This document shows, piece by piece, positions 31,780 to 63,576 of a stretch of DNA of 64,000 bases; position 1 is the stretch's first letter; every line of letters begins with the position of its first letter. Below the pieces are notes generated by a model that had not been told where the DNA came from, made no database searches, and was given only the letters and a program-made list of their open reading frames with translations. The stretch comes from Pyrinomonadaceae bacterium (GTDB lineage Bacteria > Acidobacteriota > Blastocatellia > Pyrinomonadales > Pyrinomonadaceae), in NCBI GenBank assembly GCA_035606795.1, contig DATNEI010000107.1, forward strand, positions 470-64,469, given 5' to 3'. Position numbers and translations under genes: made by a program.

Positions 31780-31878
31780 GGAGGCGCATCTGTTCTGGTG
31801 AATGGCGCGGTCTTCAAAACCGTTAGTGAGACTGCGAGAGCAGGCTCAGGTAGGTTCGATTCCTACACGCCTCCGCCA
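31780..31878 (+). tRNA. selC: tRNA-Sec (anticodon UCA)
   Basis: Folded by hand. Acceptor GGAGGCG/CGCCTCC with a C.A eighth position. 6-bp D stem CTGTTC/GAATGG with 4-nt loop TGGT. Anticodon loop CTTCAAA is identical to that of E. coli selC. The long variable arm carries a GAGA tetraloop. T arm is GTAGG-TTCGATT-CCTAC, followed by discriminator G and CCA. Confidence 0.9.
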
Positions 31879-59899: not shown

Positions 59900-60004
59900 C
59901 TATCTGCATATTGCTGCACACGCCAAGGCGCAACCGGATACGGGACGTGAAACACCCAATATGGCAAGCACCAATAGCGATGAAATCATTATCTTACTTT
60001 TCAT
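59900..60004 (-). CDS. 34-aa Cys-rich lipoprotein-like peptide (below the ORF-track size cutoff)
   Basis: Own translation: MKSKIMISSLLVLAILGVSRPVSGCALACAAICR. AGGAG lies 5 nt upstream of the ATG. VSGC fits a lipobox. Confidence 0.4.
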   Translation of the reverse strand: MKSKIMISSLLVLAILGVSRPVSGCALACAAICR

Positions 60005-60015
60005 GGGAGCTCCTG

Positions 60016-60049
60016 TACAGACTGGTAGTGTCTGAATGTTGTGTTGCCG
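60016..60049. repeat. Left target-site duplication (TACAGACT, 60016..60023) plus left terminal inverted repeat (60024..60049)
   Basis: ggtagtgtctgaatgttgtgttgccg is the exact reverse complement of 63543..63568. Confidence 0.95.
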
Positions 60050-60086
60050 AACGGTTGGTTAATAGTGTGAGCCGCAATCCCTTTAT

Positions 60087-60788
60087 CTAATCGTCATCAA
60101 TATAACGCAGGAGTAATTCGCCCAACGGGGTAGGATCGTAAGGGATTCCACTATGCATTGTATTGAACTGGAGGAGACCCTCATCTATAACCGTCTTCAA
60201 GTACCGTTCACGCAGAAGTTCCCGCGTGTAATCAGCCGGCTTTGATTCGTCGATCATGCGCTCACCTTCGAATCGCACTCGCCGTTCCGCAAGAATACTT
60301 TTATGTTTTTCTGCAAACTCCTGCCGCTCATTTTCTGTTCGTAGGGACTCATACTTTAGAACAATGATCTCCGCATCATTTAGACCGTCCAGAAGTTCTA
60401 ATAACTCTTTCTGCCCAATCTCGTCTACCTCCGATTCGGTCAGCGTATTTTTTAACAAGGAGGCTAGGTATTTCCGGCGTTCAGGAGAAATTGACCGCGA
60501 TGCTTGATGTAAGGCGTTCTCAAGAAGATTAGTGAATGCCTCGCCGCGCATTTTCTGGCGAAGTACATCTTCTTCGATGTATTTCACTTTGTCCCCCAGG
60601 ACTCTTAGGAAAGCTATTACGCGATCCTGCTTTTGATCGGGAATTGTGACGGTAAGAAGCTCCGCAAGCATTGGGCCAACAACCGGGGCAGTCCCTGCCA
60701 CCGCTCGAAGGAAAATAGCGACTCTATCCGTTCGTTCAGTATCGAGTGAGATTTGGTCGGAGCGCAGGATGCTTAGTTTATCCGTCAT
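60087..60788 (-). CDS. Passenger ORF, helical hypothetical protein (faint Abi-alpha-like N-terminal pattern)
   Basis: 233 aa, e.g. VVGPMLAELLTVTIPDQKQDRVIAFLRVLGDKVKYIEE. No firm family assignment. Confidence 0.4.
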   Translation of the reverse strand: MTDKLSILRSDQISLDTERTDRVAIFLRAVAGTAPVVGPMLAELLTVTIPDQKQDRVIAFLRVLGDKVKYIEEDVLRQKMRGEAFTNLLENALHQASRSISPERRKYLASLLKNTLTESEVDEIGQKELLELLDGLNDAEIIVLKYESLRTENERQEFAEKHKSILAERRVRFEGERMIDESKPADYTRELLRERYLKTVIDEGLLQFNTMHSGIPYDPTPLGELLLRYIDDD

Positions 60789-60833
60789 GGTTTTGCCTTA
60801 TATCACCAAACCCCTTGCTTGCATAAAAGCCGA

Positions 60834-61799
60834 TTAGAATTTCGCCGCCGCTTTCAGCAAGTCTTCAATGCTCCACAAGTGCTTGACGATCCCGGCTGCC
60901 ATTGCCGGAGTAGAACCTTTCAAAGTCTTGTGCTGTCTGCAAAAGTTATAATAGGCAAAGTAAAGAGCCAGCGCCGCTTTGTGATTTTCCCACCGCTTGC
61001 TGAACGCATTAGTTAGCCGCGTGAATCTGCGGTTTTCCATTCTCACGCTCAAGTTATGTCTTTCGATATGCGACGTGCTGCACCTGTCCATATCGGGGTT
61101 TCCCATGACGGCTTCTTTTCGTGCGCCTGTGCATTCAGCGGGACTATATCTTTGTTCGTCCATAACTGGCGAGCGATAGATTTTGATTAGCTGAGCGAAG
61201 CTAACTCGCTGCATTCCGAGACTCATTATCACGGCATCGCGATAAGCCGGAAAACCATCGGTTGAAATCTGAAAACTGCCAGCGGTCGCATAAGCGATCT
61301 TGTCAGTGAACGTCACCGTATCCTCATAACTTCGATGCCCCAAGTGCCACGCGAGAATCAGTTTTGAATTGCTCTCAATCGCGGTGAACGTCCAAGCATC
61401 GCCGATCTCGTCAGACTCCAAACCTTTGCGAGTCTTGGTCTTTTTCTTCATTGCGATCCAAGACCAAAGCTCGTCGCATTGAACGTCAGAAACTCTCAAG
61501 CCGTGAATGCGATCCAACATGAGAGCCTCACACTTGCGGCCAGCAATGAGAAGTAACCGCATGATCGTGTTGCGGTCTACGCCCGTAAGCCTCTCAGTGC
61601 TTCGGATGCTGCAACCTTCAATCAGGCAACGAATGACAGCCAGGGCCTTATCATTCGCCAGTGACATATTGTCGAGAGGCTTAACACGCGGCTCTTGGAA
61701 AGTTTTTCCACAAGACAGACAACGAAACCGCTGATTACCTTTTCGATCCTTGCCGAATTTCTTGGAGGGTTTATCGCAGGTTGGACAATTCATAATCAC
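60834..61799 (-). CDS. IS1-family transposase (single ORF, N-terminal zinc ribbon plus DDE domain)
   Basis: CPTCDKPSKKFGKDRKGNQRFRCLSCGKTF zinc ribbon. DDE landmarks are VQCDELWSWI, ISTDGFPAYRDAV, TSHIERHNLSVRMENRRFTRLTNAFSKRWENH and YYNFCRQHKTL. Confidence 0.8.
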   Translation of the reverse strand: MIMNCPTCDKPSKKFGKDRKGNQRFRCLSCGKTFQEPRVKPLDNMSLANDKALAVIRCLIEGCSIRSTERLTGVDRNTIMRLLLIAGRKCEALMLDRIHGLRVSDVQCDELWSWIAMKKKTKTRKGLESDEIGDAWTFTAIESNSKLILAWHLGHRSYEDTVTFTDKIAYATAGSFQISTDGFPAYRDAVIMSLGMQRVSFAQLIKIYRSPVMDEQRYSPAECTGARKEAVMGNPDMDRCSTSHIERHNLSVRMENRRFTRLTNAFSKRWENHKAALALYFAYYNFCRQHKTLKGSTPAMAAGIVKHLWSIEDLLKAAAKF

Positions 61800-61860
61800 C
61801 TCTGCCGTAGCAACACCATTATGCTTAGGCAGAGGTGCAATGTCAAGGGCGAACTTAGGT

Positions 61861-62541
61861 TTATTTTTCTGGCGGAGGCGTCACCAAATCCCAGGTATTT
61901 TCCCCGATGTTTTTGAACCGCTTCTTAGGGTCTTGATGCAGGGCGGCGGCTACGCTCTGGGATGTGGCGTTCTTACCGTGTTCGGCAACTAGGCGCTCGG
62001 CTATCAGTTTCGCGTGAAGCGGTCTTTCTGCTAGCAGTATCTTCTCTGCCGCGTCCGCTTTGCTGGGGGTCTTTGCCGCCTTGGGAGCTTTCTTTTTTGA
62101 TCGCTTCTTGCCGCTCTTTGTCGGTTTCTCAGTTCGCTTTCGGAGATTAGGATTGTTCGGATACCACTCGGCCAGCGCCCACTCGTCCCCGAGTCGGATA
62201 ATGTCCCCAATATCACTCTCGCGACGCCGGAGAACCGCATAAACTGTATTGGTTTTTGCTGGAGGCAGTCCGCCCTTTTCTAATGCCTGCGTGATCTGCG
62301 GGACGCTCTGCTTGGTCTTAACCATATCCAAAAACTTCTTGGTTGCATCCGCGATGCTTAATCGCAGGAAGGCACCGACAGGAATATTGTCAGGGCTTAT
62401 CACGCCGCCGGTGCTGCCATCGCCGAGGACGCCAGCCGAGGCGAGAATGGTTTTCACGGCAGCAATGGCAGATTCGATCTGCGTCTTACGGGCCTCTAAA
62501 TCAGCCAAAACCGCGTTATAGTTAATGTTTCCAGTCGCCAT
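61861..62541 (-). CDS. Passenger ORF: tandem HARE-HTH-like winged-helix protein with a Lys-rich linker
   Basis: Two modules each end in the HARE-HTH-like pattern, RLGDEWALAEWYP and FKNIGENTWDLV. The linker is KRTEKPTKSGKKRSKKKAPKAAKTPSK. A strong RBS ggaagga lies upstream. Confidence 0.5.
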   Translation of the reverse strand: MATGNINYNAVLADLEARKTQIESAIAAVKTILASAGVLGDGSTGGVISPDNIPVGAFLRLSIADATKKFLDMVKTKQSVPQITQALEKGGLPPAKTNTVYAVLRRRESDIGDIIRLGDEWALAEWYPNNPNLRKRTEKPTKSGKKRSKKKAPKAAKTPSKADAAEKILLAERPLHAKLIAERLVAEHGKNATSQSVAAALHQDPKKRFKNIGENTWDLVTPPPEK

Positions 62542-62745
62542 GAAAATTCCTCCTTCCCCTGAGGATCAACCTATGCTATAAAGACACCGCGACGGCTTTC
62601 ACCGTCGAGGCCGGGTCATAACCCCGGCCCCGATTGGGTGCCTCGTAAATGAGGTTGCACCTCGTTTCAAATCAAAAGGGGCTTCGGCGTTCGGTTGCCG
62701 ACAGTGACTATGAACGCCGTCGCCTTTTTGATCCCCTCTTCTATA
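62542..62745 (-). ncRNA. Multi-helix structured 5' leader or independent ncRNA inside the transposon
   Basis: On the minus strand, closing helix GAGGGGATCAA/TTGATCCTC encloses a long stem (ggcgacggcgttc / gaacgccgaagcc). It also encloses hairpins gaggt-gca-acctc, cctc-atttac-gagg, ggccggg-gttatga-cccggcc and cgacgg-tgaaag-ccgtcg. A candidate promoter TTGACA-18-TATAGA lies at 62740..62769. Confidence 0.35.
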
Positions 62746-62857
62746 CACCTGCCCAATTAGTGATGTCAATCGAAAAGATCGATCTCGGCTGATCTTTTTC
62801 TGCCGCCGTTCGCCACGCGTCCGAATCGAGCCTCTGGAATCGCTGCGCTCTCGCTCT

Positions 62858-63015
62858 CTTCCGCTTTAATACCGTTCGCCGAATTATCAACGTCACATCA
62901 CGTCAGAATCCGGTGTCCTTGTAAGTCTATAAAGCCAAGCGACTTAACCTCTCTCTTTTTAGGATTATGATATGACATGATATTGATAATTCGGCGAACG
63001 GTATTAAAGCGGAAG
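62858..63015. repeat. Perfect 33-bp inverted repeat with a 92-bp spacer (MITE-like or recombination-site-like), nested in the transposon
   Basis: cttccgctttaataccgttcgccgaattatcaa (62858..62890) pairs with ttgataattcggcgaacggtattaaagcggaag (62983..63015). Confidence 0.9.
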
Positions 63016-63255
63016 TTTTTCCAAGAGATTACTAGAACCTAATTTGATTTGATTCTAGATATACAAACCTCATATTAGAATTCAATTCAATATATAAAAT
63101 ATGCCTCTAGAGAGTTGTTTTTAATTGAATAGTTATCATTCCTGAAATCTAAACAGGAATTTTCTTATTAGGAAACTCAATTTTGGATTAAATTGGGACT
63201 CTAAATCCCTAGAAAAACTTGTTTTTTAATAGAAGGTAGCGCCGGAAGAAATCTT

Positions 63256-63516
63256 CTAGGATTTTTTCCAGCGAGATTGAGCGGCTTTTTTGGCGATTTT
63301 TCTTCTTTTTTCCGCGCTGAGGTTTTTCGCTCTGGCGTGGCCGCCTTTAGAGCCTCCGCGCAGGCCAGAAGCTACCTTCTGCGCGTCTCTGCCCTTAACC
63401 GATTCGGGATCGTGCTTGGCGATGATTTGGTCGAGGATGCCGCGAGCGAACTTTAGAGGTTCGTCCTCTTCGAGTGGCTTTGTTTGTGCCATGCACCGAT
63501 CATAACATGGCGTCAA
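63256..63516 (-). CDS. Passenger ORF: small basic protein with a KGG-type C-terminal tail
   Basis: GLRGGSKGGHARAKNLSAEKRRKIAKKAAQSRWKKS. The track start is TTG at 63516; ATG at 63492 (MAQTKPLEED) is an alternative. Confidence 0.5.
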   Translation of the reverse strand: MTPCYDRCMAQTKPLEEDEPLKFARGILDQIIAKHDPESVKGRDAQKVASGLRGGSKGGHARAKNLSAEKRRKIAKKAAQSRWKKS

Positions 63517-63542
63517 GTCTTAGAGAGAAGAAACACGCGGAG

Positions 63543-63576
63543 CGGCAACACAACATTCAGACACTACCTACAGACT
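63543..63576. repeat. Right terminal inverted repeat (63543..63568) plus right target-site duplication (TACAGACT, 63569..63576)
   Basis: cggcaacacaacattcagacactacc followed by tacagact. The TSD overlaps the TAG stop (63575..63577) of the flanking ORF. Confidence 0.95.

What the first reader, a model, noticed from the sequence alone, without database searches (positions are those of the whole stretch)
60016..63576. Intact 3.5-kb IS1-family cargo transposon with perfect 26-bp ends and an 8-bp target duplication
GGTAGTGTCTGAATGTTGTGTTGCCG (60024..60049) is exactly reverse-complementary to 63543..63568. Both are flanked by the direct repeat TACAGACT (60016..60023 and 63569..63576). Inside lies a single-ORF IS1-type transposase. 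The GGnnnTG terminus and the 8-9 bp duplication fit IS1 as I recall from ISfinder, where the ISMhu11 subgroup reaches several kb with passenger genes. Most of the element is cargo: three ORFs plus 714 bp of noncoding DNA, with visibly lower GC than the flanks. Perfect ends and an intact duplication indicate a recent, probably still mobile insertion. The precise empty site can be reconstructed as catgggagctcctgTACAGACTatcgttgatcc.
Basis: partly seen in the sequence, partly recalled or inferred. Interest (0 to 1): 0.75.

Follow-up and report, generated by a model that had tools for sequence, protein, structure and literature searches.

The report
Intact cargo-carrying IS1-family transposon
This is a structurally intact 3.5-kb jumping gene of the IS1 family, one of a large and apparently uncatalogued group of soil-bacterial transposons in which a small conserved protein gene and the transposase gene bracket a swappable slot that often carries anti-phage defence or toxin-antitoxin genes.

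Summary
There are perfect 26-bp inverted repeats at 60024-60049 and 63543-63568, an 8-bp direct repeat TACAGACT abutting both, and four minus-strand ORFs with 714 bp of noncoding DNA between them.

The 319-aa transposase is a single-ORF IS1-family enzyme with a Zn finger, an HTH and D107/D179/E244.

Sixty-eight relatives were delimited, mostly from Acidobacteriota MAGs plus two alphaproteobacterial plasmids. They share GGTAGTG... ends. Sixty-three carry distinct perfect 8-bp duplications. They measure 1.6-6.4 kb; none is a bare IS.

- The 78-aa basic protein sits beside the transposase-distal end in 33 relatives.
- The HARE-HTH protein lies directly upstream of the transposase in 8 relatives.

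Only the 233-aa ORF, a remote Abi-alpha relative, is element-specific.

Relatives carry IetAS, RosmerTA-type RmrA, PD-T4-5, MazF, PIN, methyltransferases and similar genes in the variable slot.

The transposase promoter carries the same GTGTTGC motif as the ends, which suggests autoregulation.

Current mobility is not shown. Only one copy at one site was found, and no empty site. ISMhu11 subgroup membership could not be tested.

Verdict: a new member of a known kind. The family-level pattern is moderately interesting.

The parts
60016..60023 (.). Left copy of the 8-bp target-site duplication TACAGACT
   Evidence: Read. An 8-bp duplication is found in 63 relatives; a 9-bp one in none.
60024..60049 (+). 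Terminal inverted repeat at the transposase-downstream end, GGTAGTGTCTGAATGTTGTGTTGCCG
   Evidence: Family consensus is GGTAGTGTCCTAAnnnTGTGTTGCTG.
60087..60788 (-). orf233: element-specific cargo gene. All-helical protein of unknown function, remote Abi-alpha-like relative.
   Evidence: No homologue in any related element. No Pfam, NCBIfam or PADLOC hit for the protein itself. 2 of 30 homologues hit Pfam Abi_alpha, best E 1e-6. AF2 pLDDT 74, no PDB fold match. Homologues elsewhere lie in hypothetical-rich, defence-like neighbourhoods without an IS1 transposase.
60834..61793 (-). Single-ORF IS1-family DDE transposase, 319 aa: Zn finger C3/C6/C25/C28, HTH, D107/D179/E244
   Evidence: PGAP names plasmid relatives 'IS1 family transposase'.
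61797..61837 (-). 16-nt-arm hairpin (61822-61837 pairs with 61797-61812). Its 5' arm lies between the -35 and -10 boxes; its 3' arm contains the Shine-Dalgarno GAGGTG. Inferred to block translation of read-through transcripts.
   Evidence: (pair I4) and the sequence. An equivalent AGCCGCC/GGCGGCT pairing is seen in about 14 relatives. The function is an inference.
61809..61817 (-). GGTGTTGCT motif just downstream of the transposase -10 box, the same motif as positions 17-25 of the terminal repeats. Putative transposase operator.
   Evidence: GTTGC is invariant in 33 relatives. 3 of the window's 5 matches to KGTGTTGCY lie in the element; 1.6 are expected for the whole window. Binding is an inference.
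61818..61846 (-). Transposase promoter TTGACA-17-CATAAT (11 of 12 consensus positions)
   Evidence: Conserved in 33 relatives.
61861..62541 (-). HARE-HTH protein, 226 aa. Recurrent accessory module directly upstream of the transposase.
   Evidence: Pfam HARE-HTH 29.3 bits vs cutoff 25.9. Homologues occur in 10 elements, 8 of them ending 55-70 nt before the transposase start.
62740..62769 (-). Promoter-like TTGACA-18-TATAGA for the HARE-HTH gene, followed by a leader of about 200 nt conserved in relatives
   Evidence: Read. The leader is conserved with L005, L019 and L028.
62858..63015 (.). 158-nt hairpin (54-nt arms, 87% complementary) about 300 nt upstream of the HARE-HTH start. Function unknown, possibly an insulator or terminator between modules.
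   Evidence: pair I1. Fold z-score -11. Shared with L005, where 11 of 47 pairs show compensatory changes and none is broken. A sequence-unrelated hairpin sits at the same place in L028. No strand asymmetry.
63016..63255 (.). AT-rich spacer (27.9% GC) with no similarity to any related element
63256..63492 (-). orf86 (78 aa from the ATG): small basic three-helix protein, the family-conserved gene next to the transposase-distal end
   Evidence: Present at the same place in 33 relatives. 113 close homologues, no Pfam family. The profile finds 7138 clusters. Distant members are again linked to IS1-type transposases.
63499..63507 (-). Extended -10-like TGTTATGAT, 6 nt before the orf86 ATG. Suggests a leaderless mRNA.
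   Evidence: TGnTAnnAT lies 6-7 nt before the ATG in about 25 relatives. Expression is an inference.
63543..63568 (-). Terminal inverted repeat at the orf86 end
63569..63576 (.). Right copy of the 8-bp target-site duplication TACAGACT. It overlaps the TAG stop of the flanking 198-aa gene, which stays intact.

Best explanation
The segment 60024-63568 is a unit transposon (a 'transporter IS') driven by a single-ORF IS1-family DDE transposase.

Inferred mechanism, by analogy with IS1:
- The transposase binds the two 26-bp terminal repeats through its N-terminal zinc finger and HTH.
- It cleaves at the GG termini.
- It joins the ends to a target cut with an 8-bp stagger. Repair of that stagger produced the TACAGACT duplication.

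Family architecture:
- The layout is: end, a small basic protein gene of about 80 aa (probably a leaderless mRNA), a variable cargo slot, an optional HARE-HTH gene, the transposase, an optional second cargo slot, end.
- In this copy the first slot holds only noncoding DNA: an AT-rich spacer and a long hairpin.
- The second slot holds one unique gene, orf233, a remote Abi-alpha-like protein.

Inferred control of the transposase:
- Autorepression at a GTGTTGC operator shared with the ends.
- A hairpin that hides the ribosome-binding site on read-through transcripts.

Cargo turnover between elements most likely occurs by recombination between the conserved end module and the transposase module.

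Shown: anatomy, family membership, the 8-bp duplication rule and cargo diversity. Inferred: DNA binding, regulation, the role of the small protein and present-day activity.
For: - Perfect repeats and duplication.
- IS1 assignment of the transposase: Pfam DDE_Tnp_IS1 27.8 > 24.1; NF050000 34.9 > 28.
- Colinear alignment with E. coli IS1, E 2e-11, catalytic residues matched.
- D107, D179 and E244 invariant in 42 relatives down to 43% identity.
- 68 relatives delimited by GGTAGTG... repeats; 63 distinct perfect 8-bp duplications and no 9-bp ones.
- Same architecture with 8-bp duplications on plasmids of cultured Acidiphilium and Hoeflea, annotated 'IS1 family transposase'.
- orf86 gene at a fixed position in 33 elements, and linked to IS1-type transposases even for distant members.
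- Cargo in relatives: IetS at 1210 bits plus IetA at 411 bits, PD-T4-5, RmrA, MazF, PIN, methyltransferases.
- Promoter and operator motif conserved.
- Mosaicism between modules: L009 has transposase 81% but orf86 43%; L028 has transposase 68% but orf86 78%.
Against: - The NCBIfam IS1 equivalog score (86.5) is below its cutoff of 100, so this is a divergent branch.
- Only one copy at one site was found. The contigs that carry it are 100% identical to the window.
- No empty site, circle or second insertion was found, so activity is unproven.
- The window's own cargo has no PADLOC hit.
- The roles of orf86, the HARE-HTH protein, the operator and the hairpins rest on position and conservation only.
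- The window's target site lacks the TCAA-N7 motif seen at many relatives' sites.
Confidence: 0.85

Rival explanations
1. It is the same element, but now a fixed, immobile resident. It would be kept for its accessory genes rather than actively transposing.
For: Single copy and a single site in everything retrieved. No empty site was found. No other copy of the ends lies in the window.
Against: The 26-bp repeats and the duplication are perfect. The transposase is full length, and every residue invariant in the 42-sequence family alignment, including D107/D179/E244, is present in it. The promoter is intact. Metagenome assemblies collapse or break at repeats, so copy number is poorly sampled.
Confidence: 0.3
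2. The true mobile unit is a short IS made of the internal IR-like site upstream of the transposase plus the 60024-60049 end. On this view the outer end at 63543-63568 was recruited only once, so the upstream genes are accidental hitchhikers.
For: The transposase promoter region contains an end-like CCTAAG...GGTGTTGCT sequence.
Against: The internal site lacks the terminal GGTAGTG and has different spacing. In 68 relatives the duplication flanks the outer ends, and no bare element of about 1 kb was found. The orf86 gene next to the outer end is conserved across the family.
Confidence: 0.03
3. The element belongs to the IS1595 family, which also has an N-terminal zinc finger, 8-bp duplications and known cargo-carrying members, rather than to IS1.
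For: The N-terminal zinc model NF050000 is shared by IS1 and IS1595. IS1595 is a family in which transporter IS are documented (10.1101/2021.05.26.445724).
Against: There is no hit to the IS1595 DDE model at E <= 0.1, whereas DDE_Tnp_IS1 passes its threshold. NCBIfam's best model is transpos_IS1. The alignment with IS1 InsAB is colinear, including the IERHN motif. PGAP labels relatives as IS1.
Confidence: 0.03
4. This is a sub-hypothesis about function. The window's own cargo, orf233, alone or with the HARE-HTH protein, is an abortive-infection or anti-phage module. The element would then be a defence shuttle like its IetAS- and RosmerTA-carrying relatives.
For: 2 of 30 orf233 homologues hit Pfam Abi_alpha, best E 1e-6. 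Homologues sit near M78 peptidase, HamA-like and DUF4325 genes. Relatives carry bona fide defence systems in the equivalent slots.
Against: The window protein itself has no Pfam or PADLOC hit. There is no structural match. Guilt by association is weak.
Confidence: 0.3

Closest known systems
IS1 of Escherichia coli (IS1 family prototype)
   Same: Zinc-finger, HTH and DDE transposase that aligns colinearly with the D, D and E residues matched. Ends begin GGTnnTG. Target duplication of 8-9 bp. A regulator-binding motif is shared between the ends and the transposase promoter; in IS1, InsA binds the ends (established knowledge).
   Different: IS1 is 768 bp with no passenger DNA, and makes its transposase by a -1 frameshift between insA and insB. 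Here the transposase is one ORF with a 40-aa C-terminal extension (a YNxxRxH motif that hits IS481/IS3 models) and an insertion between the second D and the E. The element is 3.5 kb and carries three further genes. Identity is only 23%.
Single-ORF / ISMhu11 subgroups of the IS1 family in ISfinder (recalled from memory, not checked)
   Different: Membership could not be tested. ISfinder is not available and the name has no hit in the paper library. I do not know of a description of a conserved small-protein gene or of defence cargo for that subgroup.
Transporter IS (tIS) of the IS1595 and IS66 families
   Same: An IS-like structure with one transposase, terminal repeats, a target duplication and passenger genes inside (PMC9330008; 10.1101/2021.05.26.445724).
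   Different: The transposase family differs. [quoted passage not shown] Here, carrying extra genes is the rule for the whole clade rather than an occasional variant.
Tn7-like transposons as carriers of defence systems (Benler et al. 2021, PMC8649781)
   Same: The transposon cargo is rich in defence systems, toxin-antitoxin modules and methyltransferases. Conserved core genes bracket a variable region.
   Different: Tn7-like elements are far larger, with multi-protein TnsABCD machinery, att-site targeting and 5-bp duplications. This is a 2-6 kb element with a single DDE transposase and largely non-specific 8-bp targets.

Membership tests
IS1 family | Transposase homologous to IS1 InsAB' (DDE_Tnp_IS1) | tested here: met
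   Pfam PF03400 27.8 bits vs gathering score 24.1. The NCBIfam equivalog NF033558 scores 86.5, below its cutoff of 100, so this is a divergent member.
IS1 family | N-terminal zinc finger followed by an HTH | tested here: met
   NF050000 IS1/IS1595 zinc domain 34.9 vs 28. C3, C6, C25 and C28 are nearly invariant, and the region at residues 57-85 is conserved.
IS1 family | DDE catalytic triad | tested here: met
   D107, D179 and E244 are invariant in 42 sequences and align with the IS1 D, D and E residues.
IS1 family | Terminal inverted repeats beginning GGnnnTG (ISfinder table, from memory) | tested here: met
   GGTAGTG at both ends. The same start is seen in all 68 relatives.
IS1 family | 8-9 bp target duplication | tested here: met
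   8 bp here. 63 of 68 relatives have a perfect 8-bp duplication and none a 9-bp one.
IS1 family (classical IS1 group) | Transposase made by a programmed -1 frameshift between insA and insB | tested here: not met
   One continuous 319-aa ORF. This excludes the classical group but not the single-ORF groups.
ISMhu11 subgroup of IS1 | Transposase clusters with ISMhu11 in ISfinder | not testable with these tools
   No ISfinder access. 0 papers hold the name.
Transporter IS (tIS) | Passenger genes unrelated to transposition inside the terminal repeats of an IS-like element | tested here: met
   orf233 is unique to this element and lies inside the repeats. Relatives carry IetAS, RmrA and other genes.
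IS1595 family | DDE_Tnp_IS1595 catalytic domain | tested here: not met
   No such hit at E <= 0.1. The best NCBIfam model is IS1.
Abi_alpha (PF14337), for orf233 | Score above the Pfam threshold | tested here: not met
   No hit for the window protein. 2 of 30 homologues hit, best E 1e-6. This is a remote relationship only.
HARE-HTH (PF05066), for the 226-aa ORF | Score above the Pfam threshold | tested here: met
   29.3 bits vs 25.9, residues 162-219.

The most novel reading that the evidence does not exclude
The window element is one member of a widespread, so far uncatalogued superfamily of IS1-derived unit transposons found in Acidobacteriota, Alphaproteobacteria and Planctomycetes.

On this reading:
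- The elements are obligate cargo carriers.
- They have a two-gene core: the transposase plus a leaderless basic protein of about 80 aa at the opposite end. That protein acts as a transposition cofactor or regulator.
- Their variable slot works as a shuttle for anti-phage defence and toxin-antitoxin systems such as IetAS and RosmerTA in soil bacteria.
- They show a target preference of TCAA-N7-[8 bp]-N7-TTGA.
Probability: 0.35. Interest if true: 0.65.

Novelty: new member of a known kind. Interest (0 to 1): 0.45.

Why it matters
By itself the element is an ordinary, well-formed transposon. It can be annotated with precise boundaries, and it marks horizontally acquired DNA upstream of glnA in an uncultured acidobacterium.

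The wider pattern is more useful. A simple one-transposase IS1-type vehicle repeatedly carries complete defence systems and toxin-antitoxin modules between soil bacteria, always with clean 8-bp duplications.

That gives three things:
- An easily recognisable signature (GGTAGTG... ends) for finding new defence candidates in its variable slot.
- A compact natural cargo transposon that could be tested as a genetic tool for Acidobacteriota.
- A concrete candidate function for a very large family of unannotated 80-aa proteins.

Tried and rejected
- **Other copies of the ends.** An exact 20-mer of the end found nothing in genome contigs. No further copy lies in the window.
- **Empty site.** Exact-protein look-ups of the transposase and of the flanking glnA returned only the filled site, in contigs 100% identical to the window. 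P0002 was not on record. The empty site could therefore not be tested.
- **Rfam.** Only sub-threshold miRNA-hairpin matches on the palindrome; rejected as chance.
- **orf233.** The PDB sequence profile and Foldseek against the PDB gave nothing significant. PADLOC gave no hit.
- **orf86.** Pfam, the PDB profile and source names gave nothing. One NCBI label, 'histone H1', merely reflects its Lys/Ala-rich tail. The AF2 model was low confidence (pLDDT 68, pTM 0.29), so I did not run a fold search on it.
- **Strand of the long hairpin.** Folding energies favour opposite strands in the window and in L005. RNA versus DNA palindrome stays undecided.
- **Literature.** No paper on IS1-family defence-carrying transposons or on ISMhu11 was found. 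The FEMS and ISfinder reviews are not held.
- **IS1595 assignment and chance-repeat explanation.** Both were considered and rejected.

Full report
**Observation**

The sequence read and the independent repeat search (pair I2) agree. GGTAGTGTCTGAATGTTGTGTTGCCG at 60024-60049 is perfectly reverse-complementary to 63543-63568. A search allowing three mismatches finds only these two copies in 64 kb, with none expected by chance. TACAGACT abuts both repeats at 60016-60023 and 63569-63576. The element is therefore 60024-63568, 3545 bp.

All four ORFs lie on the minus strand, and the gap 62542-63255 is 714 bp. Element GC is 48.8% against 55.4% for the rest of the window.

**The transposase**

The ORF 60834-61793 (319 aa from the ATG, the form present in public gene calls) gives these scores:
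- Pfam DDE_Tnp_IS1: 27.8 bits, above the threshold of 24.1.
- IS1/IS1595 zinc-domain model: 34.9 bits, above the threshold of 28.
- NCBIfam IS1 equivalog: 86.5 bits, below its cutoff of 100.
- IS1595 catalytic model: no hit.

CDELW aligns with MDEQW, TDGFP with TDGWP, and IERHN with IERHN. In an alignment of 42 relatives down to 43% identity, D107, D179 and E244 are invariant and the four N-terminal cysteines nearly so.

It is a divergent, single-ORF IS1-family enzyme. RefSeq labels its plasmid-borne relatives 'IS1 family transposase'.

**Relatives**

Thousands of homologues exist, mostly in Acidobacteriota MAGs (Pyrinomonadaceae, Blastocatellia, Chloracidobacterium, Thermoanaerobaculia). A few occur in Gemmatales and others.

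From 160 fetched loci I delimited 68 elements by their terminal repeats. The consensus is GGTAGTGTCCTAAnnnTGTGTTGCTG. Findings:
- Sixty-three have distinct, perfect 8-bp duplications; none has a 9-bp one.
- Lengths run from 1.6 to 6.4 kb, with a median of 3.5 kb.
- No bare IS of about 1 kb was seen.

The same structure, with 8-bp duplications, occurs on plasmids of cultured Acidiphilium multivorum and Hoeflea sp.. This is strong comparative evidence that the window element inserted by transposition and that 8 bp is the family's stagger.

**What is core and what is cargo**

*The small ORF.* It has homologues at the same position and orientation, as the first ORF 30-70 nt inside the transposase-distal end, in 33 elements. 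It is present somewhere in 39 of 68.
- It has no Pfam, PDB or PADLOC match.
- It is predicted as three helices with a basic tail, GGSKGGHARAKNLSAxKRxxIAKKAAxxRW.
- A profile of it finds 7138 clusters at 50% identity.
- Two distant members that I could place again lie 1.7-1.8 kb upstream of an IS1-type transposase with cargo in between.
- A conserved TGnTAnnAT lies 6-7 nt before its ATG, which suggests a leaderless transcript (inference).

*The HARE-HTH ORF* (Pfam 29.3 vs 25.9). It recurs in 10 elements, and in 8 of them it lies directly upstream of the transposase.

*The 233-aa ORF.* It has no counterpart in any relative. Its 35 homologues elsewhere lie in hypothetical-rich, defence-like neighbourhoods without a transposase. 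Two of 30 touch Pfam Abi_alpha. The model is all-helical without a PDB match.

So one gene, not three, is element-specific cargo.

**Cargo in relatives**

The slot between the small gene and the transposase, and a second slot after the transposase, hold about 180 different gene clusters. Identified contents include:
- A complete IetAS system in four elements: IetS 1210 bits, IetA 411 bits.
- RosmerTA-type RmrA with its partner in five elements.
- PD-T4-5/AbiD-like proteins, an nSTAND NTPase and SocA/Panacea.
- MazF, PIN and MqsA-like proteins.
- DNA methyltransferases, HNH nucleases and an AlkB-like oxygenase.

Identities of the end module and of the transposase are uncoupled. For example, L009 has transposase 81% but small protein 43%, while L028 has 68% and 78%. 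This points to recombination between conserved modules as the route of cargo exchange (inference).

**Regulatory anatomy**

Upstream of the transposase lies TTGACA-17-CATAAT at 61846-61818, conserved in 33 relatives. It is followed by a TGTGTTGCT-type motif (GTTGC invariant, flanking positions nearly so) that matches positions 17-25 of the terminal repeats. Three of the window's five matches to KGTGTTGCY are the two ends and this site. By analogy with InsA binding to the IS1 ends, I infer autorepression.

A 16-nt-arm hairpin (pair I4) pairs the promoter spacer with the Shine-Dalgarno sequence. Only transcripts reading through from upstream would be blocked, as in the classical arrangement of IS10 and IS50 (inference). 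A comparable pairing is visible in about 14 relatives.

**The noncoding 714 bp**

This stretch consists of three parts:
- A 240-bp AT-rich spacer without relatives.
- A 158-nt hairpin.
- A promoter-like TTGACA-18-TATAGA with a conserved leader for the HARE-HTH gene.

The hairpin is shared with L005, where 11 of 47 pairs have changed on both sides and none is broken. A sequence-unrelated 51-bp-stem hairpin sits at the same place in L028. Folding energies do not favour one strand consistently. It may be an insulator or terminator between modules, or a palindromic DNA site. This is unresolved.

**Mobility**

Perfect ends, an intact duplication, an intact catalytic triad and an intact promoter are compatible with an active element. 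However, I found only one copy at one site. The other contigs that carry it are 100% identical to the window. No empty site could be retrieved. 'Recent and still mobile' therefore remains an inference.

**Comparison with what is known**

The element works like IS1 and fits every IS1 family criterion I could test, except the insA/insB frameshift. That places it among the single-ORF members. ISMhu11 membership could not be tested.

Structurally it is a transporter IS. This is a recognised category (PMC9330008) that the TnCentral preprint ascribes only to IS1595 and IS66. Functionally the family resembles Tn7-like defence carriers (PMC8649781) on a much smaller scale. I found no paper describing IS1-family defence-carrying transposons, but the library lacks the ISfinder reviews.

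**Verdict**

The finding is real and correctly classified. It is a new, unnamed member of a known kind of element. Its interest comes from the family-level regularities: the conserved small protein, constitutive cargo, defence content and a target motif. Score 0.45.

Noticed in passing
window 62858-63015; L005 3765-3911; L028 2967-3136: A long hairpin (45-54 bp stems) lies about 300 nt upstream of the HARE-HTH gene in three elements. Between the window and L005, 11 of 47 pairs changed on both sides and none is broken. In L028 the arms are unrelated in sequence. It is not decided whether this is an RNA structure or a DNA palindrome.
   Followed up: partly
related loci, flanks of 62 insertion sites: There is a target-site bias. 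TCAA lies exactly 7 nt outside the duplication on the small-gene side in 12 of 62 sites. TTGA lies at the mirror position on the other side in 5 of 62. About 0.45 per position are expected. This gives a loose palindromic target, TCAA-N7-[8 bp]-N7-TTGA. The window's own site lacks it.
   Followed up: partly
window 59900-60004 (minus strand): An uncalled 34-aa ORF, MKSKIMISSLLVLAILGVSRPVSGCALACAAICR, has an AGGAG ribosome-binding site and a signal- or lipoprotein-like N-terminus. It starts 12 bp from the insertion point. The transposon separates it from the upstream 198-aa gene, whose TAG stop overlaps the duplication.
   Followed up: no
window 63256-63492 and proteins P0269-P0416: The small basic protein belongs to a very large family without any annotation: 7138 clusters at 50% identity with E <= 1e-3. 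Its C-terminal motif KGGxARAxxLSxxxRxxIAxxAAxxRW also ends longer proteins of 356-369 aa in L101, L116 and L157.
   Followed up: partly
window 63016-63255: A 240-bp stretch of 27.9% GC inside the element has no similarity to any related element and no ORF of note. Its origin and role are unknown.
   Followed up: no
L108, L116, L071, L092 flanks: Several relatives are inserted directly beside the end of another family member. Flanks read ...GAGCACTACC or GGTAGTGGGG... right next to the duplication. This suggests nested or tandem insertions, or attraction to the ends of related elements.
   Followed up: no
L128, L131, L133, L151, L152 flanks: In a few relatives the 8-bp 'duplication' lies within short tandem-repeat DNA, so for those loci the duplication is ambiguous. 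They do not affect the overall count materially.
   Followed up: no
window 31780-31878: A tRNA-SeC gene (anticodon TCA) is the only tRNA gene found in the window.
   Followed up: no
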